64,000 bases of DNA from a virus (IMGVR_UViG_2816332320_000003:64001-128000); one strand, 5' to 3'; shown: positions 2,563 through 45,003, counted from the stretch's first letter. The notes: generated from the letters alone by a model not told the origin. A program made the numbers and translations.

Positions 2563-2570
2563 ATTGTTTT

Positions 2571-5920: not shown

Positions 5921-5924
5921 AGAT

Positions 5925-6155
5925 TTAATTTATTATAGGCATATTTGGCATTTTACTGATCATTGGATTGTTCTTGTAGAACTCATTAAGACATCGGATA
6001 TATAGAATTAAGTCGTTCCATTCTTTCGTGGTGACTTTTTCATATTGATTTACTGTCTCATAGAAAATAACTAGGCATTCATTACTTAAAGTAGCAGCAG
6101 GATCAGTCCTACGAATATGAGTACCGTTGCCTCTCTCGCTTTTCACTAAAAACAT
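5925..6155 (-). CDS. hypothetical protein
   Basis: 76-aa ORF with AAGGAGG RBS. Confidence 0.65.
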   Translation of the reverse strand: MFLVKSERGNGTHIRRTDPAATLSNECLVIFYETVNQYEKVTTKEWNDLILYIRCLNEFYKNNPMISKMPNMPIIN

Positions 6156-6291
6156 TGTCTGTAGTACCTCCTTATTATCACGTCCCTACTGCAAGGGCTT
6201 TATTTCTCGATTCTTCCTTTACTATCGTGATACTATATATTAATTTTACTTAAAATGCCTTGTGCTACATCTTTATTTTGATTTATTTTGC

Positions 6292-6789: not shown

Positions 6790-6798
6790 AACAAACAC

Positions 6799-6873
6799 CC
6801 CATGACAAATTTATTTTATACTTATACAGTATCATGGGTTGGCAAGAATCATGACTAATATTTTTTTTGCCAA
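6799..6873. promoter_or_regulatory. candidate AimR operator region (widely spaced inverted repeats)
   Basis: CCCATGA-N26-TCATGGG (6799-6838) and TTGGCAA-N21-TTGCCAA (6839-6873). Confidence 0.45.
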
Positions 6874-6903
6874 TTGTTATTTTTTATTGACTAAAAGAAA
6901 AAA

Positions 6904-6917
6904 GTGGCTTTCGCCAC
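6904..6917 (-). terminator. terminator after aimP-like gene
   Basis: GTGGC-TTTC-GCCAC stem followed on the minus strand by a T-run. Confidence 0.6.
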
Positions 6918-6926
6918 CCATTTCTT

Positions 6927-7022
6927 TTACCAGCCACCACCCGGATCTTGTTGAAGGATCACAAGTGCAACTGGTACAATATAAGCCAGAGCCATTAAAA
7001 GTTTTGCTTTCGCTGCTTTCAT
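6927..7022 (-). CDS. aimP: arbitrium-type signalling pro-peptide MKAAKAKLLMALAYIVPVALVILQQDPGGGW (not in ORF track)
   Basis: 31 aa; GGGAGGTG RBS overlapping end of receptor; basic N-terminus, hydrophobic core, C-terminal DPGGGW. Confidence 0.8.
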   Translation of the reverse strand: MKAAKAKLLMALAYIVPVALVILQQDPGGGW

Positions 7023-7028
7023 TAGTAC

Positions 7029-8375
7029 TCACCTCCCTTCAAGCAGCGACTCAAATTTCTGCCTCTGTTCATTATTTAATGAGAAATTATTTTTATATAT
7101 TATTTTGGTTCCTTCTCTAAATCGTTTCATTTGACCCATCTCTACTGCCAGTATCAAGCATTCAATAGCTTGATTAATGGCTTCGTGTGAGTTTTTAAGT
7201 TCAGAATAGTACTTAGCCAAGGCAGATCGAAGTCTTAAGGTTGATTTTTTAATCAACATGTAATCATATTCAGAAAACTGATCAATTATATTTTTGTATT
7301 TATTAATTAAATTACTTGCCTCATTTGGCATACCATGTTTTAAGTAGCACTCAACTGCTAAAGGTAAAACATAATAGAGGTTTTTCGGATCTTGCTCATT
7401 CGCCCAATCAATGTAATCATTGATCGCAGAACAGTCCCCTTTTTCAATTAAGGTATAACTTTTATTGCCAATAGCTATATTCTTAAAATAGTCATTGATC
7501 GCTGCATACCTCTCAATTATCAATAAAGACTCTTCATATTTCTCCATCCCTCTATATGCATAAGCCTGATAAATCAATGACTCTCCAATGTATTTCTGGT
7601 ATGGGGCATGATATTTTTCTTTATTAATTGACAGTGAAATAGATTCAAGCTCAATTGCATAGTCTAATAAATTCTCCCAGTCCTCCATAACATTGAAAAA
7701 TGTTAAGGTTCTATAGTACGCATCAAGTTTTACATTGTACAATTCACCGTCTTTTTCAATGAATTCATCCGGAAGTAAAATGAGATAATCTAACAGTCTA
7801 TGTAGTGCCTCTTTTCCCTTCCCCTGCAAGTCTTGATCTCTAAGTATCATAAATTTTTTAAAATAGCATATAGCTAGTTTTTCACTCTTTTTCTGTTCTT
7901 CTTTGATGATCTCGTTATACAATTCCAATGCAAAATCATATAATTTCATTTCATATAGTTTGTCAGATATTCTTAAAACTAAGTCTTTATTGGATTTAAC
8001 ATCTTGATTAAGAATTTCATAGGTTATTGCCTTTGCTAACAATGGCAAATCAGCTTCATAGCAACACATGATGAATTCTTCACACTTTGCTACTTTGTAT
8101 TTCCCGTTACTATCAATGCACTCACTTACAAAGTCATAATACAACTCCCCTTTTTTAAGACCAAGTGTATCTGAGATTAGATTAAGATGTTCAAGACTCA
8201 TTGGTCGAGGATCATCATTTTTTAGTATTTTATTTAAAGTTGTAGCGTGGATTCCTGTTGCTTCTGCAATGTCTTTTTGCATCATACCTTTTTGATCCAT
8301 GAGAGAGGAAATCTTGCCTCTAAGATTGCAACGTGCAATATCCAATTCAATCTTTTCGTTACTTTGGATAAGCAT
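7029..8375 (-). CDS. aimR: RRNPP-family HTH-TPR peptide receptor (AimR-like)
   Basis: N-terminal XRE HTH (QKDIAEATGIHATTLNKIL), helical TPR-like repeats, adjacent pro-peptide gene, SPbeta-like synteny. Confidence 0.8.
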   Translation of the reverse strand: MLIQSNEKIELDIARCNLRGKISSLMDQKGMMQKDIAEATGIHATTLNKILKNDDPRPMSLEHLNLISDTLGLKKGELYYDFVSECIDSNGKYKVAKCEEFIMCCYEADLPLLAKAITYEILNQDVKSNKDLVLRISDKLYEMKLYDFALELYNEIIKEEQKKSEKLAICYFKKFMILRDQDLQGKGKEALHRLLDYLILLPDEFIEKDGELYNVKLDAYYRTLTFFNVMEDWENLLDYAIELESISLSINKEKYHAPYQKYIGESLIYQAYAYRGMEKYEESLLIIERYAAINDYFKNIAIGNKSYTLIEKGDCSAINDYIDWANEQDPKNLYYVLPLAVECYLKHGMPNEASNLINKYKNIIDQFSEYDYMLIKKSTLRLRSALAKYYSELKNSHEAINQAIECLILAVEMGQMKRFREGTKIIYKNNFSLNNEQRQKFESLLEGR

Positions 8376-21425: not shown

Positions 21426-21595
21426 TATTACATATTTTCCTTGCTCAAATTATACGTGTTAATGAACTAATAACACAACACAACAATTTTGTAATATGCT
21501 GTCGAATTGTGTTGACTCGTGACACATAGGAAGATTATACTAATATCAACAGCTTGGAGCGACTAGATAAATATACATATTCAGGAGGAGAATGC

Positions 21596-24351: not shown

Positions 24352-24768
24352 TTAGATTGCCAAACATCCAACCTTATTTGTTTTCATTTTCTTATTTTTA
24401 ATTGCTAAAAAATCTTGAGGTGTAATTAAGCTCAAACTTACCTCTAAAGCTTCATTTACGTCTTCCATGGTTTTAAAATTCAAAGTTGCCACTTTACGAG
24501 ACAATCGTTGTTTATCAATTGTTCTAATCTGCTCTAGTAGAATAACACTATCTTTTTCGATGTCATAATCTTTCGCGCTAATTTCAACATGAGTTGGCTG
24601 TCTTCCCTTCGAAATTTGAGAAGTAATTGCCGCAACAATCACCGTTGGGCCAAATTTGTTTCCAATGTCATTTTGGATGATAAGGACTGGTCTGTTACCA
24701 CCTTGCTCACTTCCTACAACTGGAGAAAGGTCAGCTAAGTAGATCTCCCCTCGATATACTGGCTTCAA
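24352..24768 (-). CDS. mazF: MazF/PemK-family endoribonuclease, close to Bacillus NdoA (EndoA)
   Basis: [32 protein letters not shown]...VAAITS...[17 protein letters not shown]; catalytic Arg and Thr retained; own promoter, no upstream antitoxin ORF. Confidence 0.93.
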
Positions 24769-32612: not shown

Positions 32613-34469
32613 TTAGAAAGTGGGTTTATAGGTGTTTACAATTGGCTTTATTCCTTGCTGCTCAAAGTATTTTAAAATCTCGTCATATTGCTGGTCGTCA
32701 CATGAGAGGAATTTGCTTGTAGTCATTCTATACCCGTTATTTTCTTCCACTTGGTTTAATACTGTATCAGGTAAACTATGCCAACCTTTGTAAACTAACA
32801 AGGTAGAATAGAAGAAACTATAATGTAGGTTTCTTTTGTTTTCAGGTTTGAATGTCAATTTAACAGCATTGTTATATTGGGCATAAGCTGTAGGTGTTAC
32901 GCTGTCAAAAGTCATTCTGTTCGTGACAATTGATCCAAAGTCAGATATATAAAACAGGGTGAGTTTTTCGCCTTGTCGTATGTCTGCATCATTGAATTGC
33001 TCTTGTATTCCGTCCACCTCTTGTAGTAATTTATACATGCTTCCTTTTAGAGGTTCTAAGTGTAATTGCTGAATAATTCTCTTTGTTAATTTCATATTGC
33101 ATTGTTTTAGTCTCTCTTTGATCGCTTCTTTGTACTTTTTCCAACTTTCATTTTCCCATATCTCTTTGATGTCTAAATCAGAAATAATACTTGTTGACAT
33201 GTCCTCTAATTGGTCAGCCTTTTCTTTTAACTCTGTGATTTCTTCATCGTTTAAAGCCTGCTCATATGTGCATGTTTTTTCTATTGTTGCATTATCTGTT
33301 AGTCCTACATATCTAGCATAACTATGTCCTTGTGCATCAATTATGAATTGCAATTTATTATCTAGATATACTGCAACTCCAAACAAATTCCATTTTACAG
33401 TCTGCTTTTCTTCTTTATCCATGTTGTAGAAATCCGTCATAGAATTGATTCTGTTATCATCTGTATAACTTCCACCAGTTTCACTTAGAAAATCAAAATC
33501 ATGTAAAAGCATGTTAGAAAAGTATTTTAATGCTTCTTCATTATTAAAGTGAACTTCCTTTGTAATCTTCACGTTTTCAAGTGAATAATTACCCTGCTTA
33601 ACTTCTTCTTTGTATTCATCAATTGTATTATTTTTATTTAAATAAGCAAATTCTGAGCCAATAACAAAGTACTGTTCATTTTCTTCAAGCGTCTTTATCT
33701 CTAAGCTATTGTAAATGAAATCTGTTTGTTTTTGCTCCTCTTGTTGACGTTTCTCTAATTCAATTTTTTCTAATTCTCTTTGGTGTTGATATTCTTTCCA
33801 CTCTTGCTCTTTTCTTTCCTCTTCTGCTCTTTCAAAGTCAGCAAGATTGTTATCGAATTCGCCCATTTCTTTTTTATGTGCTTCTGTTACATCTGTTTGA
33901 GTGTACTCCCAATGAATTGAAACAGAGCCATAAAAGTTGTAGCTGCTTCCATAGTCTCCATATGGATCATAATTCTTGCAATACTTATAAGCGTTTAGAA
34001 TCTTGGTGCAATATTCTCTGATTGCTGCTATGTATTTGCTCTCTTTCTCGTATGGAGAAGATACAATATAAAAACGAATGCTGTTATAGTCGCTTGTAAT
34101 TGAGAACTTACATTGCGGGAATCGTCTTCTGACATGTGTCCGAATTTCTTTTGCCATTTCTTTTGTGGACTGTTCTTTATTTACTTCAATTTCTATCCAC
34201 TGTGCTGATTCCCACAAATTATATTGGTTATTTTTATTTTCATTAACTACTTTTTCTGTTTTTGTGCTCAATTGCTCGCTGTTATTTGTAAGTGTGTTAG
34301 CGATTTGAAAAGCCCTTTCTGATTGCTTTGTGTACCAGCACTTTTTAAATCCCGACCATCTAAAACCATTTTGTTTCAAACTCTCAATCACATCTTGTAT
34401 AGGCTTAGTATTAAAGTACAATTCAATTCCGTTCAATTCCTCATTGATCTTCAATACTGCTGCTGTCAT
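32613..34469 (-). CDS. polyvalent-type early protein with LPD29-like domain
   Basis: GIELYF..KP...NGFRW...KCWY N-domain; AKEIRTHVRRRFPQCKFSITSDYNSI (LPD29-like). Confidence 0.65.
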   Translation of the reverse strand: MTAAVLKINEELNGIELYFNTKPIQDVIESLKQNGFRWSGFKKCWYTKQSERAFQIANTLTNNSEQLSTKTEKVVNENKNNQYNLWESAQWIEIEVNKEQSTKEMAKEIRTHVRRRFPQCKFSITSDYNSIRFYIVSSPYEKESKYIAAIREYCTKILNAYKYCKNYDPYGDYGSSYNFYGSVSIHWEYTQTDVTEAHKKEMGEFDNNLADFERAEEERKEQEWKEYQHQRELEKIELEKRQQEEQKQTDFIYNSLEIKTLEENEQYFVIGSEFAYLNKNNTIDEYKEEVKQGNYSLENVKITKEVHFNNEEALKYFSNMLLHDFDFLSETGGSYTDDNRINSMTDFYNMDKEEKQTVKWNLFGVAVYLDNKLQFIIDAQGHSYARYVGLTDNATIEKTCTYEQALNDEEITELKEKADQLEDMSTSIISDLDIKEIWENESWKKYKEAIKERLKQCNMKLTKRIIQQLHLEPLKGSMYKLLQEVDGIQEQFNDADIRQGEKLTLFYISDFGSIVTNRMTFDSVTPTAYAQYNNAVKLTFKPENKRNLHYSFFYSTLLVYKGWHSLPDTVLNQVEENNGYRMTTSKFLSCDDQQYDEILKYFEQQGIKPIVNTYKPTF

Positions 34470-34609
34470 TTCGATCCGCTCCCCAATATGTATTAGGCAT
34501 TTCTTAACTGTCTTTATTTTATCATTTATTTTAAGTTAATACAATGCTTTTATCATATTTTTTTGTACGTTATTTTCTCATAATCCGATAAAAGGTAGAT
34601 TTTATAGAA

Positions 34610-35428
34610 ATGCATGCTATCTCCACTCATGTTCGCTGTTATATAATTCCTTTAATAGTGATTAAATTAGAAAGGTTGATTGATTTGGATTTCAATTTTG
34701 ATCTATTACTAAAAGTTCTCCCTGCATTAATTACAGGCTTATTGATTCCTTTGATAAGCAAATTCTCAACATTACTTAAATCGAGAACCGTAATTGAATC
34801 TATCGAATCAGGTACTTATCTTTCTAAAAAAGCCCTTGCTACACTGATTATTGTTGTTCTTGTAGGAATAGGAAGTCTTGTATCCATTTACTTTGGGACT
34901 TATCATGAGAATAGTTATAGATTATTTCTATTTTTTACTTTCACAATTTGCACTACACTGTTTATTTTTATCAAGAAGACCAAATGGAATACTATTCTCG
35001 GTCTTATTGCTAAATTTAATATGCTTATGTTTATAGCTTCGCAATGTAAAATCAAGTTTACTATTGACTTTCCATTTTATTTTAACGAGCAAGTCTTAAT
35101 ATTCATCATAATTTTTTCTGTCTACTTGTTCGCTGCCTTTATTGGTGGTGGACTTATGATTGAGGAACTACGATCCTTATTAAAATTCAAAAAGGAAACA
35201 GTATATATAGTATACGAGTCAGGCGAAATACTACATGTAGAGATTCAGTCAGTAACACAAAAGGGTGACTATATAGTTAAAATCTTTTCTAGTCAAGCAG
35301 ACAAGGAAACAGCAAAAGATGTCCACTTGCCAAGCATAGTCTGGGATGGCGTAGATTATGAAGTATTAATCAATAGATCGTTAATTCAAAAAATAGTATA
35401 TGTAAACGATAAGAAAAGGATAGAGTAA
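34610..35428 (+). CDS. multi-pass membrane protein, inverted relative to neighbours
   Basis: about 5 hydrophobic segments; own terminator; flanked by palindromes 34588 and 35463. Confidence 0.7.
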   Translation: MHAISTHVRCYIIPLIVIKLERLIDLDFNFDLLLKVLPALITGLLIPLISKFSTLLKSRTVIESIESGTYLSKKALATLIIVVLVGIGSLVSIYFGTYHENSYRLFLFFTFTICTTLFIFIKKTKWNTILGLIAKFNMLMFIASQCKIKFTIDFPFYFNEQVLIFIIIFSVYLFAAFIGGGLMIEELRSLLKFKKETVYIVYESGEILHVEIQSVTQKGDYIVKIFSSQADKETAKDVHLPSIVWDGVDYEVLINRSLIQKIVYVNDKKRIE

Positions 35429-35511
35429 AATATCTATCCTTTTCCTGTTTTTGAGAGTTCAAATTAATACATTCTTTTATTAGGAATAAGAAAAACCGCT
35501 TTTATGGCGGT

Positions 35512-35817
35512 TTATAATTCGACTCTTTCTACTTGTATGCTCTCCAGATCATAACCGAATTTCGGATCTGGTGAAAGTGATTTTCTAGCTTTTGTTGTTG
35601 CCGTTTTTTCTGATGTCGCTTCAACTCGTATTGCATTTACTCTTTGCATAGTTTCTTGTTCTATTGCGGTTACTTGGAACCAGTATTTTTCAGTTGGCTT
35701 CGTTTTTCTCATCTCAAAACCTTTACCCATGCAATCATAGCAAACGCCGTTGTCTTGATGTCTGTAACAATTGATAACTCCTGTGCCGCTGCACTTTTTA
35801 CACGTTACTTTGAACAT
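35512..35817 (-). CDS. DnaJ-type zinc-finger (CxxCxGxG) protein
   Basis: CKKCSGTG...CYDCMGKG; sigmaA promoter TTGATT-N17-TATAAT. Confidence 0.65.
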   Translation of the reverse strand: MFKVTCKKCSGTGVINCYRHQDNGVCYDCMGKGFEMRKTKPTEKYWFQVTAIEQETMQRVNAIRVEATSEKTATTKARKSLSPDPKFGYDLESIQVERVEL

Positions 35818-35951
35818 CTCAGACCGCCTCCTATGTATTTGCTTCTTGATTACATTATACGATAGTCACTTTGCTAAATCAAGTATTTGTATATTTTTAT
35901 ATATTATATCCAAATAAAAAACCGATTAGATTAGGAAAAGAAATAACCAGA

Positions 35952-36218
35952 TTACTCTGGTCTTCTAAGTGCAATTATTAATTTGTTAATCTTTAATATG
36001 TCATTATCACTTAAAATCTCATCCATATAGAAATCGTTGGCTGATGTAAGTGTGTCAATCATAATCTCGCTTAGTGATTTATCTTGCCACTTTTTAACCA
36101 TCCAACCCTCTTCTTCATGTCCATTTTCTACGGGAACGTCTTGCCCTAATAGATCAGCAATTTCAGAAAGGATGAGTTGATCCAAATCTTTTCCCAATGC
36201 CTGCATGGTGTTCCACAT
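35952..36218 (-). CDS. hypothetical early protein
   Basis: GAGGAG RBS; TTGACA-N16-TAAAAT promoter. Confidence 0.6.
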   Translation of the reverse strand: MWNTMQALGKDLDQLILSEIADLLGQDVPVENGHEEEGWMVKKWQDKSLSEIMIDTLTSANDFYMDEILSDNDILKINKLIIALRRPE

Positions 36219-36385
36219 ATTAATCCGCTCCTCGATATGTATTTCTTACTTATCTATATTTTACCACAACAGAACTAGTTGTCAATGTATTATTTTTATA
36301 ATTTTATATTTAATAAAACTGCAATTTGATTGAAAACCAAAGAATCCATTTACACGGCTTCTGCTTGTTAATTCCATATTGCTAC

Positions 36386-36796
36386 TTAATTACTTTTTAG
36401 ATTGACACACTTTAATCCTTTTTCGTCCGTAATTCCATGTTTAGTTAAATAATTTGATATTTCTATATCAGTTGGATTCTCAATACGTTCTTCAGCGTTC
36501 CATCTTGACGAGCCATCAGCACAAAAATAAGCCATATCAACAATTCCACTTGGTTCTTCCTTATAACATCTAGCATATTCATCCTTTAATTCTTCAATTT
36601 CTTCATCGTTAGTACCACTACCAAAATGTTCTTTAAATTTGATAGTAGATTTAGTTAATAATACCTTTAGATCATTATTCTGTGGAAAATGATCAACTAG
36701 AATTACCTCCGCATTGTCGTGTAATAGAGAATAATCTTCAGAAATAACTCTAACAAAACCATAGTCCCCATTGGGTTTAATCCGCTTTTCCCACAT
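36386..36796 (-). CDS. hypothetical protein
   Basis: 136 aa, GAGGGTG RBS. Confidence 0.6.
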   Translation of the reverse strand: MWEKRIKPNGDYGFVRVISEDYSLLHDNAEVILVDHFPQNNDLKVLLTKSTIKFKEHFGSGTNDEEIEELKDEYARCYKEEPSGIVDMAYFCADGSSRWNAEERIENPTDIEISNYLTKHGITDEKGLKCVNLKSN

Positions 36797-36845
36797 AGGA
36801 AAACCACCCTCTCCTTATGCATCTAATTTAAGTATAGCAAATCAA

Positions 36846-37046
36846 TTACAATACAACCAGATTGGTATCATTACTTGGAGATAAGACAAAGCCTTTCCCC
36901 TCGTCATCCTCTTTGGCAGTCTCACAGTATGCAACGTTACCCCAATAGCGATTAGGGTATGTGTGATCAGGTTTAGAGTGAATTGAGTAGATATTGATTT
37001 CACCTTTGCAATGATTGTCCATTTTACATATTCCCATGCAACGCAT
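36846..37046 (-). CDS. hypothetical protein
   Basis: AGGAGG RBS. Confidence 0.55.
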   Translation of the reverse strand: MRCMGICKMDNHCKGEINIYSIHSKPDHTYPNRYWGNVAYCETAKEDDEGKGFVLSPSNDTNLVVL

Positions 37047-37093
37047 ATGTATGACCTCCTTTTTAAATTTTATATTATAAATCTAGTTTGATA

Positions 37094-37351
37094 TCAAACA
37101 ACTTCCACAGAAAGAACTTCTTCAATCATTTCATTGATATCATTAACATGTATTTCGTTTACTGTAACCTCATCATTACATATCTCAATAGTGCAATTAT
37201 TGGTTAGAATTGTGTAACTGATTGCATTGAGCAGGAACACATCATAATCAATTGGTTCATGCTTTACGTTATGTGATTTAAGAGCTTTTTCAGCTTCCTT
37301 GACCGTTCTTTTTGTTAATTGCACACCAGCGTATCTTTTATTACTTAACAT
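37094..37351 (-). CDS. hypothetical protein
   Basis: AAGGAG RBS, bounded by palindrome-like sites. Confidence 0.55.
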   Translation of the reverse strand: MLSNKRYAGVQLTKRTVKEAEKALKSHNVKHEPIDYDVFLLNAISYTILTNNCTIEICNDEVTVNEIHVNDINEMIEEVLSVEVV

Positions 37352-37414
37352 TGTTGGTCACTCCTTATAATCATTCTAAATAACCTTTCATTGTGACACT
37401 ACACTACTACCAAT

Positions 37415-37978
37415 TCATTGCGCCCACTGTTCTAGAGCCTCCAGAACACCTTTCTTTGTCTTTGGAAGTTTAACACCTGTCATTTTAGTAAAGAACTCTT
37501 TAGAAGCATCGTTCCAGCCTTTTGGATGTCCTAGACATGATACAAGGTGTGGCATGTACTTATTGCGGATTGAGTAGATAAAAACCTTGTGGTCATCTCT
37601 TGGTTGAATGTTGTAGCCATATGATTTATTGAGATATTCTGATCCTATACAATCCTTATCATCGTCTGAAATTTGGCTCCTTGCCATTTGTATTAATTCT
37701 CTTCCCTTTTCTATCTTCTTTTCCTTCTCTGCTGCTTTGCGCTCTCTTTCTATTCGTTGATCACGTAAAGACCAATCGATATAGAACGTTCCAGTAATGC
37801 CCTTCATTTTGACTTTAAAAGACTTACCTTTTATGTACTCTTGTAAGATATTATCAGGCACGTAAAACCCTTTTTTATTGTCGGATCTATAGAATAGATG
37901 ACCTTTCTCATCGGTCTTTTGGTAATACCATTTTGTTGTTTTCGTTCGCAGGATAATTTCATTAAATTTGTATTCCAT
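37415..37978 (-). CDS. hypothetical protein
   Basis: 187 aa, GGAGG RBS. Confidence 0.65.
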   Translation of the reverse strand: MEYKFNEIILRTKTTKWYYQKTDEKGHLFYRSDNKKGFYVPDNILQEYIKGKSFKVKMKGITGTFYIDWSLRDQRIERERKAAEKEKKIEKGRELIQMARSQISDDDKDCIGSEYLNKSYGYNIQPRDDHKVFIYSIRNKYMPHLVSCLGHPKGWNDASKEFFTKMTGVKLPKTKKGVLEALEQWAQ

Positions 37979-38017
37979 TATGTATCATCCTCCATTATTT
38001 TGTTTGAAAGACCGCTT

Positions 38018-38239
38018 TTATGAGATTCTTTGAATAAAGGGATAGTGTTTTGCAACTGGATCATTTTCTACATCTTCCCCTGTATCAGCCCATACAACTT
38101 GCATAAATCCAGTTTCATTGACTCTAGCCATACGTCCAAACAAATCTCCACCACCAATACATACAAACTCAGTTCCCCTTGCCTTATTAATCATCTCATT
38201 GATATAAGTAACATTTGCACGTTTTTTCATTATATACAC
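38018..38239 (-). CDS. hypothetical protein
   Basis: stop inside palindrome 38004. Confidence 0.55.
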   Translation of the reverse strand: MYIMKKRANVTYINEMINKARGTEFVCIGGGDLFGRMARVNETGFMQVVWADTGEDVENDPVAKHYPFIQRIS

Positions 38240-38281
38240 CTTCTTTGTTTTTATTTATATAAAATAACCATTTGCTTACAT

Positions 38282-38488
38282 TTACTCTTTGATTGTTTTT
38301 AGCCTCTTATTGATCAATTTTAGTTCCTCTTCGAAGAACTTAACTTGTCCCTCATTATTCTGTTCCTTGTGGTATTTAATTGCTCCTTCTGTGTAGCCTT
38401 TTCTATAAAGTAAACTTTCTTTTTTTGCAATAGACATTACAGAATGACAAGCAGTTGAACCCTTGTATTCAAAGTCAATATAAGTCAT
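38282..38488 (-). CDS. hypothetical protein
   Basis: GGAGG RBS before MTYIDF. Confidence 0.55.
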   Translation of the reverse strand: MTYIDFEYKGSTACHSVMSIAKKESLLYRKGYTEGAIKYHKEQNNEGQVKFFEEELKLINKRLKTIKE

Positions 38489-38548
38489 TATGGAGACCTC
38501 CATTTATGTATTTTTAACTTACAATAAAATAGTCATTTCATAAGAATA

Positions 38549-38743
38549 TTATCTGTACACCTGTAATTCCTCAATAAGAGAAAAACAATTAGTTTTATTT
38601 AATTTCTCTACACAGGATGGGTGAAGCTTCGGAAAATGCTTCTTAAATATAGTCTTTGCTTCTTCTCTTGTTTCTGCTTCAATTACTTCTGAATCCATTT
38701 GCATGCGATGAATGAAGTACTCAACAATATACAATTTTTTCAC
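38549..38743 (-). CDS. hypothetical protein
   Basis: 64-aa ORF in leftward run. Confidence 0.55.
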   Translation of the reverse strand: MKKLYIVEYFIHRMQMDSEVIEAETREEAKTIFKKHFPKLHPSCVEKLNKTNCFSLIEELQVYR

Positions 38744-38749
38744 TTTCCA

Positions 38750-38980
38750 TCACTCCACTATAAATTGATTTTTAACTAATAAAGTGTACTGTTCTTCTGT
38801 AAGCTGCGTATGTCTTGAAAAGCCTAGCCTGTCACTTATATAGTTGTAGATTGCTTCTCTTTCTTGATTTGTTGCATTTTCAAATGTTTTATAAGAATCA
38901 ATAACTTCGTAGATATTCACGCTATAACCTATCAGATTAGCTTTCCTGAATGCCTTTTCAAGTGCTTTATGCTTTTTCAC
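38750..38980 (-). CDS. hypothetical protein
   Basis: AGGTG RBS. Confidence 0.55.
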   Translation of the reverse strand: MKKHKALEKAFRKANLIGYSVNIYEVIDSYKTFENATNQEREAIYNYISDRLGFSRHTQLTEEQYTLLVKNQFIVE

Positions 38981-38988
38981 ATTATCAC

Positions 38989-39648
38989 CTACACATTAAT
39001 CTTCACTATTAATTTGCCCTTGATATTACTGATAGCATCCTGCATGAACTGTTTATCAAAAGACAGATATTTAGACTGTTTTACTGTCATATGTTGATCC
39101 TGCTTAACTACTCTCTTTGTGAGACTATCGACATCAATATCTAACCATCCATCATAGACAAGTAATGTATTTTTAGGAAGGATTCTATTACTGTACAAAG
39201 AGCGTTTACGTTTTGGCTTATGTATGATGTTCAATGACTCTCTATATTGTGCATATGGCTCAACTAGAACCCTTTCTACAACTGTATTGATTACAACTGG
39301 AAAACCAAAGTCAGAGAACTTGATGATGGTTACTTTTCTGCCGTGTGTAAGCTGCTCTGTAGCTTGTTGGAAATCGCTTTGTACATAGTGCATGTACTGT
39401 CGTAGCAAGGAAGCCATAGTTGCAAACAATTCTTTTTCTGCCTCTGTTATAATTTCATTGGTAATTTTGATATTTTTAACTTTCAATTCACCAAAGAACA
39501 AATCTTTAACTTGTACTTTTTGCTCATCGGTCATATTTTGATAAGCAACGCAATCTACTACTTTAAAGAATACTTCCCCTAGCATATCTGCCAGTTGATC
39601 AACTTTCTGGATGAGATTCATTTCTTCAAAAGTGATTGTGATAAGCAT
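38989..39648 (-). CDS. hypothetical protein, paralogous to C-terminus of the 32613-34469 protein
   Basis: SDFG...YAQY...KPKRKRSLY...LLVYDGW...SKYLSFD shared with the 618-aa protein. Confidence 0.7.
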   Translation of the reverse strand: MLITITFEEMNLIQKVDQLADMLGEVFFKVVDCVAYQNMTDEQKVQVKDLFFGELKVKNIKITNEIITEAEKELFATMASLLRQYMHYVQSDFQQATEQLTHGRKVTIIKFSDFGFPVVINTVVERVLVEPYAQYRESLNIIHKPKRKRSLYSNRILPKNTLLVYDGWLDIDVDSLTKRVVKQDQHMTVKQSKYLSFDKQFMQDAISNIKGKLIVKINV

Positions 39649-39923
39649 ATGTATACACTCCTTAGTATAGTATATTTTTAATTACTTAATGATCAATGTC
39701 CCAGTAACAACTAGACTCTTCAGAGCCAACAACCGTTGAATTTTTGACTTTGCTACAGCTAATTGTGTTTGAGACATTTTTCATTACCCCGCTTCGTTTG
39801 TTTTGTTACTCTTATTATAATTGAATATAAGTAAGTTATCAACCATTTTATCATATATTTTTATATTTATTTTTGAAATAAAAATAGACCTGATTTAATC
39901 AGATCATAGAGAAAATACATTTT

Positions 39924-40240
39924 CGTCCGAATAACGCAAGGCGTTATTCGGACGGTCGAGGAATACCGCGCTCTTTGCGGTATGGGCTGACAAGCCTTGT
40001 TTTAGGTTGGATGATTACTGAAGCTGCTTGCATGGAAAAAGTTGAACATATAGTTCCCTATAGCAAGGTAAGAAAAGTTGTCCGTTTTGATATGGTGTAT
40101 TAGTATATAGTATGTATAATAATATCCTATTCAAAATGGACAACTTTTAAATTTTAGTTATAAACCAATTTGATTTAGAAATTTGTCACCTTGGAGCCGT
40201 ATATAGTATTTATGTATTACAGCTTGAAGGTGACAAATTT
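39924..40240. repeat. cluster of inverted repeats (candidate origin or structured RNA)
   Basis: perfect 14-bp stem 39924-39954; 18-bp IR 40073/40131; 14-bp IR 40179/40227 with related AT-rich spacers. Confidence 0.7.
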
Positions 40241-40247
40241 TATATTT

Positions 40248-41390
40248 TTATATGTTAAACACTTTTGTTTTGATTCTTCGTACATTTTTTCTAAAGGAAC
40301 TTGGTGATTCCTTTGGTTCATCGTCTATTAGGTTGTCAATTAGCTCTTTATTGTCCTCAAGATATGTATCATCAACTCTTCTTAGATACCTATCTCTATT
40401 TTTTAGAGTTTCATCAGCTAACTTTTCTTTTGCTTTTTCAATACGAACTATATCATTTTGTCCCAATGTGCAAATAACTTTGTCGTTTAACGTTCTTTCT
40501 GTAGCTAGCCTAGTATCATCATTCAATGTTAATTTGGATAGTTCTAACTTTACCTCATTAATATGTTCTTCATTGAAAATAATTTTATATGAATCATAAT
40601 AGTAAACAATGTTGTATTGATCAAATAGAATCTGATCAACCCTTTCCCTAAACACTTCCCATTTACCTTTTCGAATAGCTACTGATTTATCTTCACAGTT
40701 TAGTTCCATAAGAATAAGACGTTCAGTATGTAAAATTGCTTTTACTTCTTTGTCAGTGGCTTCCCTATGTTCTTCGTAAGTTCTCATGATTGGGTTGTAT
40801 ACATTCGTCTTCTCTTCATAATGATTGTAAGTTGTTTCTTTGTGGAGCTTAACCTGTAGATTCTTATTAAACCGAGTTTCAACATTAGCAACACATACAG
40901 TTTTTGAAGGTGACCAAAAGACCAACGATTTATTACTTAGTCTATTTAAACCTCCTTCAATTGCCCGTTGTAATGTATTACTGGTCAACTCATAAAATTC
41001 ATAGATATTATCTTCTGGAATCTGTAGGTATTTTGATAACTTGCCTATGTTGTATCTACCAAAGTTGTAATTGTCATTAACCATATTTAACACTTTAAAT
41101 AGTTGACTCTTAGGAAGAAACACTCTCCCCTTTTTACTTACCAGTAGATTAAGAATAAGTTCTTCAATATAGTTTACCATTCCAAACCGTTTTGTTTCTT
41201 TTTCCTGAGGTACATTGTAGATATCCTCAATGATGAAACAATGACCAGCTTTGCTGTATTTAAAATGTAATTCAAATTCCGCTAACTGGATTTGTTTTGA
41301 CTTCCCTGTCTTAGTGCTGACTCCTAATAGCAAACACAACTCCTTATAATTCTTGACTGTTTCGCCAACTTTTAGCTTAGTTAAATCCAT
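40248..41390 (-). CDS. hypothetical DNA-binding protein (possible replication initiator)
   Basis: 380 aa; KNYKELCLLLG...GKSKQIQL N-terminus; ends at the inverted-repeat cluster. Confidence 0.5.
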   Translation of the reverse strand: MDLTKLKVGETVKNYKELCLLLGVSTKTGKSKQIQLAEFELHFKYSKAGHCFIIEDIYNVPQEKETKRFGMVNYIEELILNLLVSKKGRVFLPKSQLFKVLNMVNDNYNFGRYNIGKLSKYLQIPEDNIYEFYELTSNTLQRAIEGGLNRLSNKSLVFWSPSKTVCVANVETRFNKNLQVKLHKETTYNHYEEKTNVYNPIMRTYEEHREATDKEVKAILHTERLILMELNCEDKSVAIRKGKWEVFRERVDQILFDQYNIVYYYDSYKIIFNEEHINEVKLELSKLTLNDDTRLATERTLNDKVICTLGQNDIVRIEKAKEKLADETLKNRDRYLRRVDDTYLEDNKELIDNLIDDEPKESPSSFRKNVRRIKTKVFNI

Positions 41391-41391
41391 T

Positions 41392-42240
41392 CTATTCCGC
41401 CTCTAACCAGTTACTGAGTAAAGTTTCCATTCGTTTAGAAGGTATGTATATCTGTATTGTTTTTTCTATATCTGATACATCAACTATCCACTTTAGTAAA
41501 ATTGATAATGCATACTTGTCATCATCTATAATCGTCGTACCCTTGTATTGACTTTTTAAAAATCCATTAGGGAAACAATTTGCTGCAAAACATAAATAGT
41601 TTCGCTTATCTTCTTTGTATGTTTCACCATTCATTGGAACAAATGCTTTTGTGTTTCCTTTATAACATAGTTGCCTGTGATGCTGCATAAATGTCGTCCA
41701 TGCTCTCTCATTAGCTATTGAATCGGTTTTGTTTGTATAGTAGTTTCCTATGTTTAATTTTAATTGTATTACTTCATTTGGATTTTTAATAAACCAAGTT
41801 TTTGATAAGTCATATTTATTGCTCCCAAAGTTATACAGCTTTCCAGTTTTTTCTTGGATTACAATGTTCTTGACTAGTTTTGATTTTACATCATCATTTA
41901 TATTCTCACAGTATCTAATGTTCTCTTCAAATTCTTTAGGTACAGAAATAGACTTGTAACTAGTTGAACTTACAACATTATAAAGATTATCAAATAGTTC
42001 ACCATCTATATACTCCTGTTCTCTGTGCAATAAATTGTTTTTATTCTGGACAATTTCTAATAATGAAAATGAGAAATCAGAAATTCCATATTGGTTCCAA
42101 TCATTTTGTAGCTTATATGAATGATGAGTTTTATATCTTAGATTAGACAGATGTTGACCCCATCTCTTCATTACATCTTGAGCACTTCCTATATATTTTC
42201 TCCCATTTATATTATTTGTTATCTGGTAAATTCCCATCAT
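41392..42240 (-). CDS. GIY-YIG endonuclease-domain protein
   Basis: GIYQITN..NGRKYIGSA..V..RW..H...LQNDWN...REQEYID. Confidence 0.85.
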   Translation of the reverse strand: MMGIYQITNNINGRKYIGSAQDVMKRWGQHLSNLRYKTHHSYKLQNDWNQYGISDFSFSLLEIVQNKNNLLHREQEYIDGELFDNLYNVVSSTSYKSISVPKEFEENIRYCENINDDVKSKLVKNIVIQEKTGKLYNFGSNKYDLSKTWFIKNPNEVIQLKLNIGNYYTNKTDSIANERAWTTFMQHHRQLCYKGNTKAFVPMNGETYKEDKRNYLCFAANCFPNGFLKSQYKGTTIIDDDKYALSILLKWIVDVSDIEKTIQIYIPSKRMETLLSNWLEAE

Positions 42241-42366
42241 ACTCTGATAATTTTCCCCCTTCTGTGTTCATTAGTTCTATGGCTGCTGAACTCTTTCCTG
42301 ACCCTGTGATACTGTCAACAACTCGAATGATTGGTGATTGCATGTAGCTCCTCCTCTATTTGCAAT

Positions 42367-42531
42367 CTATTTTCTCTTTCGATGCCTAAAGAATCCAATA
42401 ACAGATATGATGATAGTTAGAATGCTTAATGTCACTAATGCTTTGATGAATAATCCAGTTAAAGTGATTAGATTCATTAGAACTAAAGAAGCTGTAATGA
42501 TAAGGAATACATATACTAGCTTTGTTCTCAT
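42367..42531 (-). CDS. small membrane protein, YoyJ-like position in type I TA locus
   Basis: 54 aa, two TM segments and basic tail; AAAGGAG RBS. Confidence 0.6.
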   Translation of the reverse strand: MRTKLVYVFLIITASLVLMNLITLTGLFIKALVTLSILTIIISVIGFFRHRKRK

Positions 42532-42605
42532 GTGGAATTCTCCTTTCTTGAGTATGTTTATGTGAATCAGTTGTAAAAGACTATGCGATTGCATATAATA
42601 AAATG

Positions 42606-42705
42606 TAAGGGAATAAGAGAGCCTATACCAGCACTCTCTTATTGTGAGAAGTTTTAGCGTTTGCGGTGTGTTTCCTTTCGTGGAGGAAATGCACCGTTTG
42701 TCGTT
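42606..42705 (+). ncRNA. candidate cis-antisense antitoxin RNA (SR6-like)
   Basis: plus-strand TTGTAA-N17-TATAAT at 42571-42599; 5' hairpin AATAAGAGAG/CTCTCTTATT; terminator stem 42663-42697 overlapping the toxin 3' end. Confidence 0.6.
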
Positions 42706-42836
42706 TCTGGGTGTGTACGCTTCTTCTCACGCTCCAATCTTCTAGCTCGTTTCTCGTTGTGTATGTATGTGGTTGTCGCTAGGAGAAAGGATGCAATGGG
42801 TAGAATGTAAGTAACAATGAAGTGTAAGATGTTCAA
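42654..42836 (-). CDS. type I toxin-like peptide (YonT-like: TM helix plus basic tail)
   Basis: LNILHFIVTYILPIASFLLATTTY followed by KRARRLEREKKR...RKR; GAGGTG RBS before TTG. Confidence 0.6.
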   Translation of the reverse strand: MNILHFIVTYILPIASFLLATTTYIHNEKRARRLEREKKRTHPETTNGAFPPRKETHRKR

Positions 42837-42970
42837 GTGTCTCACCTCGTTTCCCATCTCCCTTACAAGATTAATTATATCATATATTGAGTTTGTTTTT
42901 ATAGTATATTTTTAGATATTAAAACAAAAAAGCCCGTTATATTGGGCTTCGTACTACTATTATATGAATG

Positions 42971-43192
42971 CTATCCCACGTTCTCATTCTGGTCTTGAGT
43001 AGATTCAGGTTCATTTGCTACATATTGATCAATTACCTTCGATCCTTCCTCATCTACAAAATCCTGTTCGCAATGATTACAAACTAAATGCCTAACATTT
43101 GGGATAATATGAGTGGTTGATCCACGTTGATATGAAAAGGATTTATATATTGGCTCCAGTGTTCCAGTATTACAAATTGGGCATGTGCTCAT
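42971..43192 (-). CDS. YgiT/MqsA-type zinc-finger protein
   Basis: CPIC..G...IIPNVRHLVCNHCEQ. Confidence 0.75.
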   Translation of the reverse strand: MSTCPICNTGTLEPIYKSFSYQRGSTTHIIPNVRHLVCNHCEQDFVDEEGSKVIDQYVANEPESTQDQNENVG

Positions 43193-43331
43193 AGTATGCC
43201 TCCTTGAATATTGATTATAGACTGTATGACTTCTCTATATGATATGCCTATTCGTTGGTAATCATTATACGCTTATTATAATAGTGTGTAAAACGGGACT
43301 ACTGTTTATGCAATCCCGTTTATAGTTGATA

Positions 43332-43637
43332 TCAAGGTGGTGTTTCTTCGTCTTGCTTTCTTAATATTTTGTATGCTTCTGTAGTTGTTATTTTTAGTTT
43401 CATAGCCAGTGTTTCAGCTTTACGGTTGTAAGATGAAACGTATGTGACTGTGAATACTACAATCATTTCATTGTTATGTACTGTTGCTACCACTCGGATG
43501 ATACCATGAGTGTATACGCTACGTCCCTCTTTTGCTTCGACTACATGACCATTCTGAATAGTTGAAACTACATCATCATGTGTGATACAACGTTCAGCCA
43601 TTCGTTCGCGTACATGTTTCATGATTAACAATTGCAT
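43332..43637 (-). CDS. DUF4258-domain protein (RelE-like fold)
   Basis: KHVRERMAERCITHDDVVSTI..G...VFTVTY. Confidence 0.65.
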   Translation of the reverse strand: MQLLIMKHVRERMAERCITHDDVVSTIQNGHVVEAKEGRSVYTHGIIRVVATVHNNEMIVVFTVTYVSSYNRKAETLAMKLKITTTEAYKILRKQDEETPP

Positions 43638-43725
43638 AGGATCACCTCTTTAGTGAAACGGTTTATTTTAGGTTATGATTTATTATAGCATGAATATAGT
43701 ATGTTGTCTAATTTATTTTTAGATA

Positions 43726-44250
43726 TTATAATCTGATTAATGCTCTACACATTTGATTTATAGTTAGCTCTCCATTTGCAATCATACAATCAATATCGTC
43801 TAATTCTAGATCGCTCCATATACCTGCATCTACATAGTCTTTAAAGCAATCAATGAGATTAGATGTAGTAGGTTCACAGGTATATCCTGCTTTGTTTAAT
43901 GCTTTGGTGATAAGTCTTTGATTAGTGGTGTCTGTGTTAGTTGCAATAGCATCATCTGTAACAGATTCAATAGTATCAACTACCTCTTGAACATCTTCAA
44001 CCACTACAGATGTATCAGATACAAGCCCTATTGCCACTGCATTACCTTCTGATTGATGTTGATTAATTGACTTATACATTTGTTTAAGGAACATGGATAC
44101 TGTTTGATCACCATTGAGTTCAGGATACCAGCGTTCACCATTAGCAACAGTAATGCATCCAAAACGATCATTGTATTGCATAGATTTAAGGAATTCAGTC
44201 ATAGTCGATGCCTTAGTTACTTTCTTAGTGATGTACTCAATTGTTGTCAT
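43726..44250 (-). CDS. hypothetical early protein
   Basis: 174 aa, AAGGGAG RBS, operator-bearing promoter. Confidence 0.65.
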   Translation of the reverse strand: MTTIEYITKKVTKASTMTEFLKSMQYNDRFGCITVANGERWYPELNGDQTVSMFLKQMYKSINQHQSEGNAVAIGLVSDTSVVVEDVQEVVDTIESVTDDAIATNTDTTNQRLITKALNKAGYTCEPTTSNLIDCFKDYVDAGIWSDLELDDIDCMIANGELTINQMCRALIRL

Positions 44251-45003
44251 ATGTATCCGCTCCCTTAGTTATCTTATTGATTATATTATAACATACTTTT
44301 ATTTATTATTGTAGTTTATTTTTAGTTATTATGTGATTGTTGTTATACGTGCAATGGAGTGGTGACAATAGAGAGAAAGATAATAAGTGATGAGTAGTAT
44401 GCTGTACACATGTGTGCAATGTAATGATGTACTGTAGTGATTGAACATAAGTGTTCAATTGTCTGACAAATGTTACCCTAACGATATGCAACCATTTGGT
44501 GTCATGTTTAATTGCTCATGGATGTTGTTTTAAAAAAAGATAATAGATAGTTATGGTCGTCATATGTGATAGTTATCATCTTAGTATGTGTAAGCAGCAT
44601 AGATATATGAATAGATTAATGAAATTGCTTATAACCTATCTTATACGCAAGTAAATTGAGTGTCGTATCAGTGGGTAGGGGGGCAATTTACATTATGGAA
44701 CCCCTTTTACTTACCAAAAGTTAGTAAAGCACATCTAGGCACGGGCGTTGCTTATAAAACTTTACTACGATTATTTTGATGTAAAATTTACCCCAGAACC
44801 AATCGTGTGGCGTATCGTGTAAATGCACTTATACCAACAAAAAATTCACTGTCTCCCATCTGCTAAATTTGAATATTAATGATATTGTTTCAGCTACTTT
44901 ATCTCCTTTTGCTTGATATGTCTGCATTTTCACGATACACATGCTACATCGTAGACATTAAACTTTACGATGCACAAAAAAGAGACGGTATTATCCATCC
45001 CTT

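What the first reader, a model, noticed from the sequence alone, without database searches (positions are those of the whole stretch)
34469..44255. MazF target UACAU planted in translation-initiation regions of early genes
Seen: minus-strand TACAT (plus-strand ATGTA) at 34488, 35833, 36237, 37047, 37980, 38506, 39649 and 44251, each within ~25 nt upstream of a start codon. It lies between SD and ATG in four cases (GGAGGTCATACATATG, GGAGGATGATACATAATG, GGAGTGTATACATATG, GGGAGCGGATACATATG) and just 5' of the SD in the other four. It also overlaps the DUF3006 start (14166). At ~33% GC the 5-mer is expected in about 5% of 25-nt windows, versus 8 of roughly 19 leftward genes here. Inference: cleavage would cut the SD from the ORF or destabilise the leader, a post-transcriptional off switch for early lytic/anti-defence genes operated by phage or host MazF.
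Basis: partly seen in the sequence, partly recalled or inferred. Interest (0 to 1): 0.8.

Follow-up and report, generated by a model that had tools for sequence, protein, structure and literature searches.

The report
MazF cut sites at phage start codons
A large SPbeta-like prophage places the exact six-letter cutting site of the bacterial RNA-cutting toxin MazF (UACAUA) right at the ribosome-binding regions of many of its non-structural genes. Related temperate phages do the same, but lytic phages and a host genome do not, which fits a MazF-operated switch that silences these genes.

Summary
All eight sites exist as described, and all eight are the full hexamer TACATA. UACAUA is the strict in-vivo motif of Bacillus MazF/EndoA.

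- **Enrichment here.** 8 of 20 leftward genes in 34469-44255 carry it within 30 nt of the start (P about 1e-9). Genome-wide the figure is 18 of 272 genes against 3.9 expected.
- **Enrichment elsewhere.** The same holds in phi3T, SPbeta and Geobacillus virus E3, and in 80 viral contigs that encode an EndoA-like MazF.
- **Controls.** It is absent in T4, SPO1, Listeria A511, Staphylococcus K and a Bacillaceae chromosome sample.
- **Character of the signal.** It is strand-specific and hexamer-specific (TACAT followed by C, G or T is never enriched). It peaks sharply where the hexamer abuts the ATG, and it is rarer in late genes.
- **Context.** The repressor module and the provirus's own orphan mazF carry no site.

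I read these as MazF cleavage sites selected in translation-initiation regions. This extends published work on MazF-driven lysogeny in arbitrium phages. Cleavage itself is untested, and 'early/anti-defence' is inferred from position only. The DUF3006 site is TACATG, so it is not a target. Four of the leaders are paralogous cassettes, so the eight sites are not independent events.

Earlier notes of this scan report the same pattern on other DNA.

The parts
34487..34492 (-). UACAUA hexamer in the leader, 23 nt before the ATG (34469) of the 618-aa LPD29-domain gene, just 5' of the SD GGGGAGCGG
   Evidence: Pfam LPD29
35832..35837 (-). UACAUA hexamer directly 5' of the SD GGAGGCGG of the 101-aa gene 35512-35817; 16 nt after a TATAAT -10 box
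36236..36241 (-). UACAUA hexamer in the leader of the 88-aa gene 35952-36218; 16 nt after the -10 box of a TTGACA-16-TAAAAT promoter-like site
37046..37051 (-). UACAUA between the SD (GGAGG) and the start; its last A is the A of the ATG of the 66-aa gene 36846-37046
37979..37984 (-). UACAUA immediately before the ATG of the 187-aa gene 37415-37978 (GGAGGATGATACATAATG)
38505..38510 (-). UACAUA 5' of the SD GGAGG of the 68-aa gene 38282-38488
39648..39653 (-). UACAUA sharing its last A with the ATG of the 219-aa gene 38989-39648; the same arrangement is kept in the 45%-identical Geobacillus virus E3 gp196
44250..44255 (-). UACAUA sharing its last A with the ATG of the 174-aa gene 43726-44250 (GGGAGCGGATACATATG)
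21574..21579 (+). A further leader UACAUA in the window, 22 nt before the ATG of the 65-aa gene 21596-21793
24352..24768 (-). Phage-borne orphan mazF, about 70% identical to B. subtilis EndoA. It has its own sigma-A-like promoter, no mazE upstream, and no TACAT in its mRNA
2748..5085 (-). MrpR/YopR-type master repressor gene (2748-3773) and the yopQ-like gene (3766-5085). They lie within a 7.9-kb run of 13 genes with no UACAUA (6.3 expected)
35854..35882 (-). Promoter-like site TTGATT-17-TATAAT, which puts the 35832-35837 hexamer about 10 nt into the transcript
   Evidence: consensus match only
36258..36285 (-). Promoter-like site TTGACA-16-TAAAAT (with TG), which puts the 36236-36241 hexamer about 10 nt into the transcript
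   Evidence: consensus match only

Best explanation
The TACATA words are cleavage sites (U^ACAUA) for an EndoA-type MazF endoribonuclease. They have been selected into the translation-initiation regions of the non-late genes of this SPbeta-like temperate phage.

**How it would work when MazF is active.** The MazF could be the host's, the provirus's own orphan MazF, or both.
- At the sites squeezed between the SD and the AUG, the cut severs the ribosome-binding site from the ORF.
- At the sites about 10 nt into a leader, the cut removes the triphosphate 5' end. That leaves a 5'-OH RNA open to 5'-3' decay.
- Either way these genes are shut off after transcription. The repressor module and mazF itself carry no site and are spared, which pushes the infection towards lysogeny or keeps it silent.

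**Shown here:** the presence, placement, strand and hexamer specificity of the motif; its distribution across phages; and the MazF gene with conserved key residues.

**Inferred:** that cleavage occurs at these sites, its effect on translation and decay, which MazF acts, and when.
For: **Motif identity**
- All 8 sites are TACATA. The strict in-vivo EndoA motif is U/ACAUA, and TACAT followed by C, G or T is not cut (PMC11780869; bioRxiv 10.64898/2026.08.06.743204).
- Where the sixth base is not fixed by the ATG, it is A in 31 of 37 TACAT sites in the temperate phages (background 0.40, P = 5e-8). In controls it is A in 10 of 33.

**Enrichment within -30..+3 of starts** (60 composition-matched hexamers used as calibration)

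| Genome | Observed | Expected | Rank |
|---|---|---|---|
| This provirus | 18 | 3.85 | 1 of 60 |
| phi3T | 11 | 2.6 | 1 of 60 |
| Geobacillus virus E3 | 14 | 3.2 | 1 of 60 |
| SPbeta | 8 | 2.8 | 4 of 60 |

- Pooled over these four: 51 against 12.5. TACATA is the top non-SD hexamer of all 4096.

**Controls are flat or depleted**

| Genome | Observed | Expected |
|---|---|---|
| T4 | 1 | 4.6 |
| SPO1 | 1 | 2.4 |
| Listeria A511 | 0 | 2.7 |
| Staphylococcus K | 4 | 3.2 |
| Nanhaiella chromosome sample | 5 | 5.4 |

**Character of the signal**
- Sense strand only: the reverse complement TATGTA gives 7 against 11.9.
- Sharp peak at T = -5 or -6: 20 of 685 genes against 1 of 1261 in controls.
- Density in initiation regions is 2.3 times the already raised ORF density.
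- Late genes 3 of 141 against other genes 40 of 544, p = 0.019.

**Viral contigs with an EndoA-like MazF**
- In 80 IMG/VR loci, de-duplicated: 53 against 20.1, P = 8e-10.

**The enzyme**
- The provirus MazF aligns to EndoA at E = 1e-43 and keeps G18, E20, R25, P26, N36 and T48.

**Spared genes and literature**
- The repressor module and mazF are site-free.
- MazF promotes lysogeny in phi3T and SPbeta. ORFs of these phages are rich in UACAU. [quoted passage not shown]
Against:
- The host is unknown, so its MazF specificity is assumed from family conservation.
- phi3T and SPbeta share most of their sites, and four leaders in this region are paralogous cassettes. The number of independent events is therefore smaller than the raw counts.
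- An A before the hexamer is favoured here (15 of 18), which MazF is not known to need.
- The upstream class is only about 2-fold over baseline when pooled.
- Predicted accessibility of the hexamers is only modestly above average (0.58 against 0.49).
- No MazE, AimX or YosL-like inhibitor was found in the provirus, so how the orphan MazF is controlled is open.
- There was no matched control set of viral contigs without MazF.
Confidence: 0.65

Rival explanations
1. The sites are MazF sites, but the outcome is a change of translation mode rather than silencing. After the cut at U^ACAUAUG, the known 2- and 4-nt 5' trimming would leave an mRNA that starts exactly at AUG, that is, a leaderless message. 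Under MazF activity these genes would then be translated SD-independently.
For: - The hexamer register is strikingly exact: T at -5 (12 genes) or -6 (8 genes), never at -7.
- PMC11780869 reports 5'-monophosphate ends 2 and 4 nt downstream of the EndoA cut when the motif is followed by U, and 5 nt or more downstream when it is followed by A.
- Applied to UACAUAUG and UACAUAAUG, both rules land on the AUG. This is my arithmetic, not a measurement.
Against: - The register is also explained by lack of room between the SD and the AUG, and by the free A of the ATG.
- The four upstream-of-SD sites in this region cannot give leaderless RNAs.
- The published phenotype is loss of phage mRNAs and lysogeny, not continued expression.
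- The analogous E. coli model is contested (text).
Confidence: 0.1
2. The motif is read by some other factor specific to this phage family, for example a RegA-like translational repressor, another RNase or a small RNA. Its identity with the MazF hexamer would then be coincidence.
For: - An A is preferred before the hexamer in this provirus and in GVE3.
- AATACATA is the only invariant block of the paralogous leaders. This is a slightly longer word than MazF needs.
Against: - Across three lineages the only shared core is exactly TACATA. phi3T prefers T, not A, before it.
- The top non-SD hexamer of 4096 coinciding with the MazF site by chance is unlikely.
- The enrichment recurs around phage-borne MazF genes in unrelated contigs over a wide GC range.
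- No Rfam family matches in the region.
Confidence: 0.1
3. The sites have no function. They would be a by-product of a genome-wide sense-strand excess of TACATA in these phages, plus copying of promoter-leader cassettes by duplication or recombination.
For: - ORFs of these phages are already rich in sense TACATA: rank 1 of 60 in non-late ORFs of phi3T, SPbeta and GVE3.
- Four leaders in the region are clearly related, and GGAGCGGAT recurs three times.
- phi3T and SPbeta sites are mostly shared by descent.
Against: - Density in initiation regions exceeds ORF density 2.3-fold, P = 6e-7.
- The peak is two nucleotides wide.
- The hexamer is the conserved block inside otherwise diverged cassettes.
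- The site is kept in an ortholog pair that is only 45% identical in protein.
- The ORF excess itself needs an explanation and points the same way.
Confidence: 0.1
4. ATACAT(A)ATG is simply a very good SD-to-start spacer for translation. From memory, the T7 gene 10 leader used in pET vectors reads GGAGATATACATATG.
For: The resemblance to the T7 gene 10 initiation region is recalled, not tested here. The spacer is A/U-rich and predicted to be fairly open.
Against: If this were a general translation optimum, it should appear in highly expressed genes of lytic Bacillus phage SPO1, in a Bacillaceae chromosome and in T4. The class abutting the ATG is found in 0 of 199, 1 of 374 and 0 of 260 genes there, against 10 of 272 here. 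It also does not explain the upstream-of-SD sites or the ORF excess.
Confidence: 0.05

Closest known systems
MazF-dependent lysis-lysogeny control in the arbitrium phages phi3T and SPbeta (Guler et al. 2023/2024; Zamora-Caballero et al. 2024; Cui et al. 2022)
   Same: - An SPbeta-like temperate phage with an MrpR/YopR-type repressor.
- Transcripts rich in the EndoA motif, with the repressor operon spared.
- In those phages MazF activity favours lysogeny, and MazF is reported to degrade most phage mRNAs except the sro operon.
- I find the same start-proximal excess in phi3T and SPbeta themselves.
   Different: - The published analysis counted UACAU inside ORFs. Placement at the SD/AUG was not described in the papers I could read.
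- This provirus is only distantly related: 25-55% protein identity over about 30 shared genes.
- It carries its own orphan MazF.
- It shows no AimX or YosL homolog by BLAST.
T4 RegB endoribonuclease and its GGAG sites in early mRNAs (own knowledge)
   Same: A phage-encoded, sequence-specific, toxin-like endoribonuclease whose targets sit in the translation-initiation regions of early phage messages, inactivating them functionally.
   Different: - RegB cuts inside the SD (GGAG) and depends on ribosomal protein S1. Here the site lies beside the SD.
- The enzyme here is a MazF/PemK-fold toxin, and the host enzyme can do the same job.
- T4 shows no TACATA signal.
E. coli MazF 'leaderless mRNA' regulon (Vesper et al. 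2011; Sauert et al. 2016, PMC5001579)
   Same: MazF sites at or just upstream of the AUG, so that the cut removes the SD-bearing leader.
   Different: - The E. coli site is the 3-nt ACA, and the model also needs 16S rRNA trimming and is contested.
- Bacillota 16S genes are reported to avoid UACAUA.
- Here the likeliest outcome is silencing, not selective translation.
Endogenous EndoA/MazF regulon of B. subtilis (bioRxiv 10.64898/2026.08.06.743204; PMC11780869)
   Same: The same strict hexamer U^ACAUA. A single site placed in a 5' UTR is enough to lower reporter output.
   Different: That work concerns host genes in stationary phase and reports no start-codon-proximal placement. A Bacillaceae chromosome sample shows no such excess.

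Membership tests
EndoA/MazF-Bs cleavage site (U^ACAUA) | Exact hexamer UACAUA; a sixth base other than A is not cut | tested here: met
   8 of 8 sites in the region and 18 of 21 TACAT-bearing leaders genome-wide are TACATA. The sixth base is A in 31 of 37 free cases. The rule comes from PMC11780869 and the 2026 preprint.
EndoA/MazF-Bs cleavage site (U^ACAUA) | Site lies on the transcribed (sense) strand | tested here: met
   All sites are in the sense orientation of the downstream gene. The reverse complement is not enriched (7 against 11.9).
EndoA/MazF-Bs cleavage site (U^ACAUA) | Site is single-stranded in the RNA | tested here: inconclusive
   Predicted unpaired probability of the hexamers is 0.58, against 0.49 for all initiation-region positions. 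This is a prediction only.
EndoA/MazF-Bs cleavage site (U^ACAUA) | A MazF with EndoA-type specificity is present | tested here: met
   Provirus gene 24352-24768(-): Pfam PemK_toxin 125 bits, E = 1.4e-43 to EndoA structures 4ME7, 1NE8 and 4MDX. G18, E20, R25, P26, N36 and T48 are conserved. Specificity is inferred, not measured, and the host MazF is unknown.
EndoA/MazF-Bs cleavage site (U^ACAUA) | MazF-dependent 5'-OH / 2',3'-cyclic phosphate ends at the site | not testable with these tools
MazF-controlled arbitrium/SPbeta-like phage | SPbeta-type backbone with an MrpR/YopR (SroF) repressor operon and a YonO polymerase | tested here: met
   Pfam MrpR_N_CB and MrpR_C_cat above cut-off for 2748-3773(-). 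BLAST hits to yopQ, yopP, yonO (55% identity), tail and nrd genes.
MazF-controlled arbitrium/SPbeta-like phage | AimR-AimP signalling pair | tested here: inconclusive
   An HTH + TPR protein of 448 aa (7029-8375) is followed by an overlapping 51-aa ORF upstream of the repressor module. There is no direct match to AimR, and NCBIfam and PDB gave nothing for the other candidate, 40248-41390.
MazF-controlled arbitrium/SPbeta-like phage | Phage-encoded MazF inhibitors (AimX, YosL) or MazE binders (YopM/SroA) | tested here: not met
   No BLAST hit at 1e-5 to phi3T or SPbeta AimX, YosL or YopM. No RHH_1 match, and only a sub-threshold MazE_antitoxin match at 20118-20189. Small, fast-evolving proteins could be missed.
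MazF-controlled arbitrium/SPbeta-like phage | Lytic transcripts rich in MazF sites, repressor operon spared | tested here: met
   Non-late ORFs have 0.87 sites/kb against 0.38 in late ORFs. There are zero sites in the 13-gene run at -1494..7032 that holds the repressor (6.3 expected), and zero in the yopP-like gene.
T4 RegB-type early-mRNA inactivation | Cut inside the SD tetranucleotide GGAG by a RegB-family enzyme | tested here: not met
   The motif lies beside the SD, not in it. The enzyme is of the PemK/MazF fold. This is a functional analogy only.

The most novel reading that the evidence does not exclude
The exact register of the start-proximal sites (UACAU|AUG and UACAUA|AUG) may exist so that two steps convert SD-led messages into true leaderless mRNAs beginning at 5'-P-AUG. 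The steps are MazF cleavage and then the recently described 2/4/5-nt 5' trimming of EndoA products. Under MazF activity the phage would then switch a chosen gene set to SD-independent translation instead of silencing it. It could do this with a MazF it carries itself.
Probability: 0.1. Interest if true: 0.85.

Novelty: new variant of a known kind. Interest (0 to 1): 0.62.

Why it matters
MazF is known to tip phi3T and SPbeta towards lysogeny, and to destroy most phage messages while sparing the repressor operon. How selectivity and speed are achieved has been left open.

A cut site placed exactly between the ribosome-binding site and the start codon makes a single cleavage enough to kill a gene's output. 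This gives a concrete, mutable target list for testing that model.

The pattern holds in three distant phage lineages and around many phage-borne MazF genes. This suggests that a host toxin's specificity has been written into phage regulatory regions as a general strategy. It also suggests that some phages have taken the enzyme on board.

Tried and rejected
- **PDB sequence searches:** nothing for the 380-aa and 345-aa proteins.
- **Rfam:** no family in 30000-48500.
- **DNA operator reading:** rejected because the signal is strand-specific and sits between the SD and the ATG inside operons. The text of the MrpR paper did not give the SPBRE sequence for comparison.
- **Sigma-E/K -10-like reading (CATACA-T, from memory):** rejected, because a site at the start codon cannot be a promoter for that gene.
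- **General translation-optimum reading:** rejected on the controls.
- **Guler et al. 2024 and Simanshu et al. 2013:** neither is held in the library. I used the preprint and secondary citations instead.

Full report
**What the window is**

The window is bases 64001-128000 of a 163,172-bp IMG/VR provirus. BLAST of my own gene calls against phi3T, SPbeta and Geobacillus virus E3 (GVE3) shows a distant SPbeta-like phage.
- A YonO-type polymerase gene lies at 48547-51135(+), 55% identical to its phi3T counterpart, followed rightwards by tail and lysis genes.
- yopP-, yopQ- and yopR-like genes lie on the minus strand.
- The yopR-like gene (2748-3773) matches both Pfam MrpR domains above cut-off.
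- An HTH + TPR receptor-like gene with an overlapping 51-aa ORF lies just upstream of the repressor module.

The region of the finding, 34.4-44.3 kb, is the first leftward block diverging from yonO. Most of its genes have no known family. 'Early' is therefore an inference from position.

**The observation**

Four lie between the SD and the ATG, and four lie just 5' of the SD. Every one is followed by A.

The DUF3006 site at 14166 is real, and the gene is DUF3006. It reads TACATG.

With my gene calls, 8 of 20 leftward genes in the region carry the hexamer within 30 nt of the start.
- P = 8e-10 against a position-specific composition null.
- P = 2e-6 against the rest of the genome.

Genome-wide, TACAT occurs upstream of 21 of 272 genes against 5.9 +/- 2.4 expected. 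ATACAT and ATACATA are the strongest non-SD words upstream of starts.

**Why the hexamer matters**

Two independent studies show that B. subtilis EndoA/MazF cuts only U/ACAUA in vivo. UACAU followed by C, G or U is not cut (PMC11780869; bioRxiv 10.64898/2026.08.06.743204).

- In the window -30..+3, TACATA is found at 18 genes against 3.85 expected. TACATC, TACATG and TACATT give 0, 4 and 1 against 0.9, 5.2 and 3.1.
- Among TACAT sites whose sixth base is not dictated by the start codon, 31 of 37 in three temperate phages have A (background 0.40, P = 5e-8). In controls the figure is 10 of 33.

**Comparison across genomes**

I used one gene caller and one null for all genomes. The 60 hexamers of identical composition served as calibration, and their pooled observed/expected ratio is about 1.

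| Genome | TACATA observed | Expected | Rank among 60 |
|---|---|---|---|
| This provirus | 18 | 3.85 | 1 |
| phi3T | 11 | 2.6 | 1 |
| GVE3 | 14 | 3.2 | 1 |
| SPbeta | 8 | 2.8 | 4 |
| T4 (same GC) | 1 | 4.6 | 58 |
| SPO1 | 1 | 2.4 | 49 |
| Listeria A511 | 0 | 2.7 | 60 |
| Staphylococcus K | 4 | 3.2 | 26 |
| 400 kb of a Bacillaceae chromosome | 5 | 5.4 | 34 |

- Pooled over the four temperate phages, TACATA scores 51 against 12.5 (P = 3e-16). It is the top non-SD hexamer of all 4096.
- In the five controls it scores 11 against 18.3.
- The reverse complement is not enriched (7 against 11.9), so the signal is at the RNA level or at least strand-bound.
- phi3T and SPbeta share most of their sites by descent. 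The independent lineages are therefore three, not four.

**Position**

The pooled profile has a peak two nucleotides wide.
- The T of the hexamer is at -5 in 12 genes (last A = A of the ATG) and at -6 in 8 genes.
- The baseline is about 0.8 per position.
- Bin -30..-21 holds 16 sites against a baseline of about 8.
- This start-abutting class occurs in 20 of 685 genes in the temperate phages and in 1 of 1261 in controls.

So the start-abutting class is the striking part.

In this region, however, the four upstream-type leaders are paralogous promoter-leader cassettes in which AATACATA is the only invariant block besides the SD and ATG. Consensus promoter matches put two of these hexamers about 10 nt into the transcript.

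Density in initiation regions exceeds the already high ORF density 2.3-fold (43 against 18.3, P = 6e-7). The orthologous pair of this provirus's 219-aa gene and GVE3 gp196 keeps GGAGTGTAT(T)ACATATG at 45% protein identity.

**Which genes carry sites**

- Late, structural-side genes carry the site in 3 of 141 cases; other genes in 40 of 544 (p = 0.019).
- In this provirus, non-late ORFs have 0.87 sense sites per kb and late ORFs 0.38.
- The longest site-free run (13 genes, 7.9 kb, 6.3 expected) is the block that holds the MrpR-type repressor and the yopQ-like gene. The yopP-like gene has none either.
- The yopQ and yopR homologs of phi3T and SPbeta are also site-free.
- This matches the statement that MazF degrades most phi3T mRNAs except the six-gene operon with sroF (bioRxiv 10.1101/2025.11.27.690993, citing Guler et al. 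2024). This test was post hoc.

**The enzyme**

The provirus carries a PemK/MazF gene at 24352-24768(-).
- It aligns over 106 residues to B. subtilis EndoA structures at E = 1e-43, roughly 70% identity.
- It retains G18, E20, R25, P26, N36 and T48, the residues reported as RNA-binding or catalytic.
- It has its own sigma-A-like promoter after a terminator, and no mazE upstream.
- It has no TACAT in its own message.
- No RHH match was found anywhere in the provirus, and only a sub-threshold MazE-type match.

GVE3 has two distant PemK genes; phi3T and SPbeta have none.

In 80 IMG/VR loci found through this MazF, start-proximal TACATA is again in excess.
- After removing duplicate leaders: 53 against 20.1 (P = 8e-10).
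- TACAT[CGT]: 33 against 45.6.
- The other 59 calibration hexamers: 1157 against 1185.
- There was no matched MazF-less contig set.

**Mechanism**

I read the sites as selected MazF targets. A cut between the SD and the AUG separates the ORF from its ribosome-binding site. A cut about 10 nt into a leader removes the triphosphate end and leaves a 5'-OH RNA. In B. subtilis such an RNA is a substrate for 5'-3' decay (established for the glmS ribozyme product, as cited).

Predicted accessibility is compatible but not decisive. Which MazF acts (host, phage or both) and when are unknown.

A less likely reading follows from the trimming rules in PMC11780869. Applied to UACAUAUG and UACAUAAUG, they would leave an RNA starting at AUG, that is, a leaderless message.

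**What is new**

MazF-driven lysogeny and ORF-level UACAU richness in phi3T and SPbeta are published. I found no paper in the held library that describes placement at the SD/AUG. The final Guler et al. paper was not available.

Earlier notes of this scan report the same pattern in two other genomes. They are AI notes, and my controls were run independently of them.

I class the finding as a new variant of a known kind.

Noticed in passing
window 24221-24768 (-): The orphan EndoA-like mazF has a 22-residue C-terminal extension. It is followed, after a strong SD (AGAGGTGAT), by a 38-aa helical-looking ORF (24224-24337) with no family. This ORF is a candidate reverse-order inhibitor. No mazE is present upstream.
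   Followed up: partly
window 42971-43637 (-): A DUF4258 protein (43332-43637) is followed by a 73-aa zinc-ribbon protein with a weak MqsA-antitoxin match (42971-43192). This may be a toxin-antitoxin pair inside the site-rich cluster.
   Followed up: no
window 1441-2562 (+): A tubulin/FtsZ-family GTPase gene sits next to the repressor module. It may be a TubZ/PhuZ-like phage cytoskeletal or partition protein.
   Followed up: no
window 5224-8375 (-): An HTH + TPR receptor-like protein of 448 aa has a 51-aa ORF overlapping its end. Both lie upstream of the yopQ/MrpR-like genes, in an arbitrium-like layout, but without a direct AimR match.
   Followed up: partly
window 24919-26335 (-): A YolD-like gene and an AbiTii-domain gene lie just upstream of mazF, and an HNH endonuclease lies just downstream. 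This looks like an accessory or defence islet.
   Followed up: no
window 34443-34470, 36192-36220, 44206-44252 (-): The unusual SD-plus-spacer GGAGCGGAT recurs at three genes of the cluster (and GGAGGCGGT at a fourth). This points to copying of initiation regions between genes.
   Followed up: partly
NC_029073 (GVE3) 29723-31113 (+), loci L073 and L074: Geobacillus virus E3 encodes two distant PemK/MazF-family proteins. One of them lies in a 225-aa open frame.
   Followed up: no
pooled profile, -60..-51 before start codons: A bump of sense TACATA occurs 51-60 nt upstream of starts, in both the temperate phages (17) and the controls (14). I have no explanation. It may be a promoter-related word.
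   Followed up: no
window 20049-20267 (-): A 72-aa ORF gives a sub-threshold match to the MazE_antitoxin (AbrB-type) family (E = 0.005, 14.8 bits). This is the only MazE-like signal in the provirus.
   Followed up: no
window 8464-38541 (earlier notes): Other first-stage notes report many copies of an 18-bp ATNAAA-N6-TTTNAT palindrome at gene junctions in this genome. I did not examine it. It does not overlap the hexamers.
   Followed up: no
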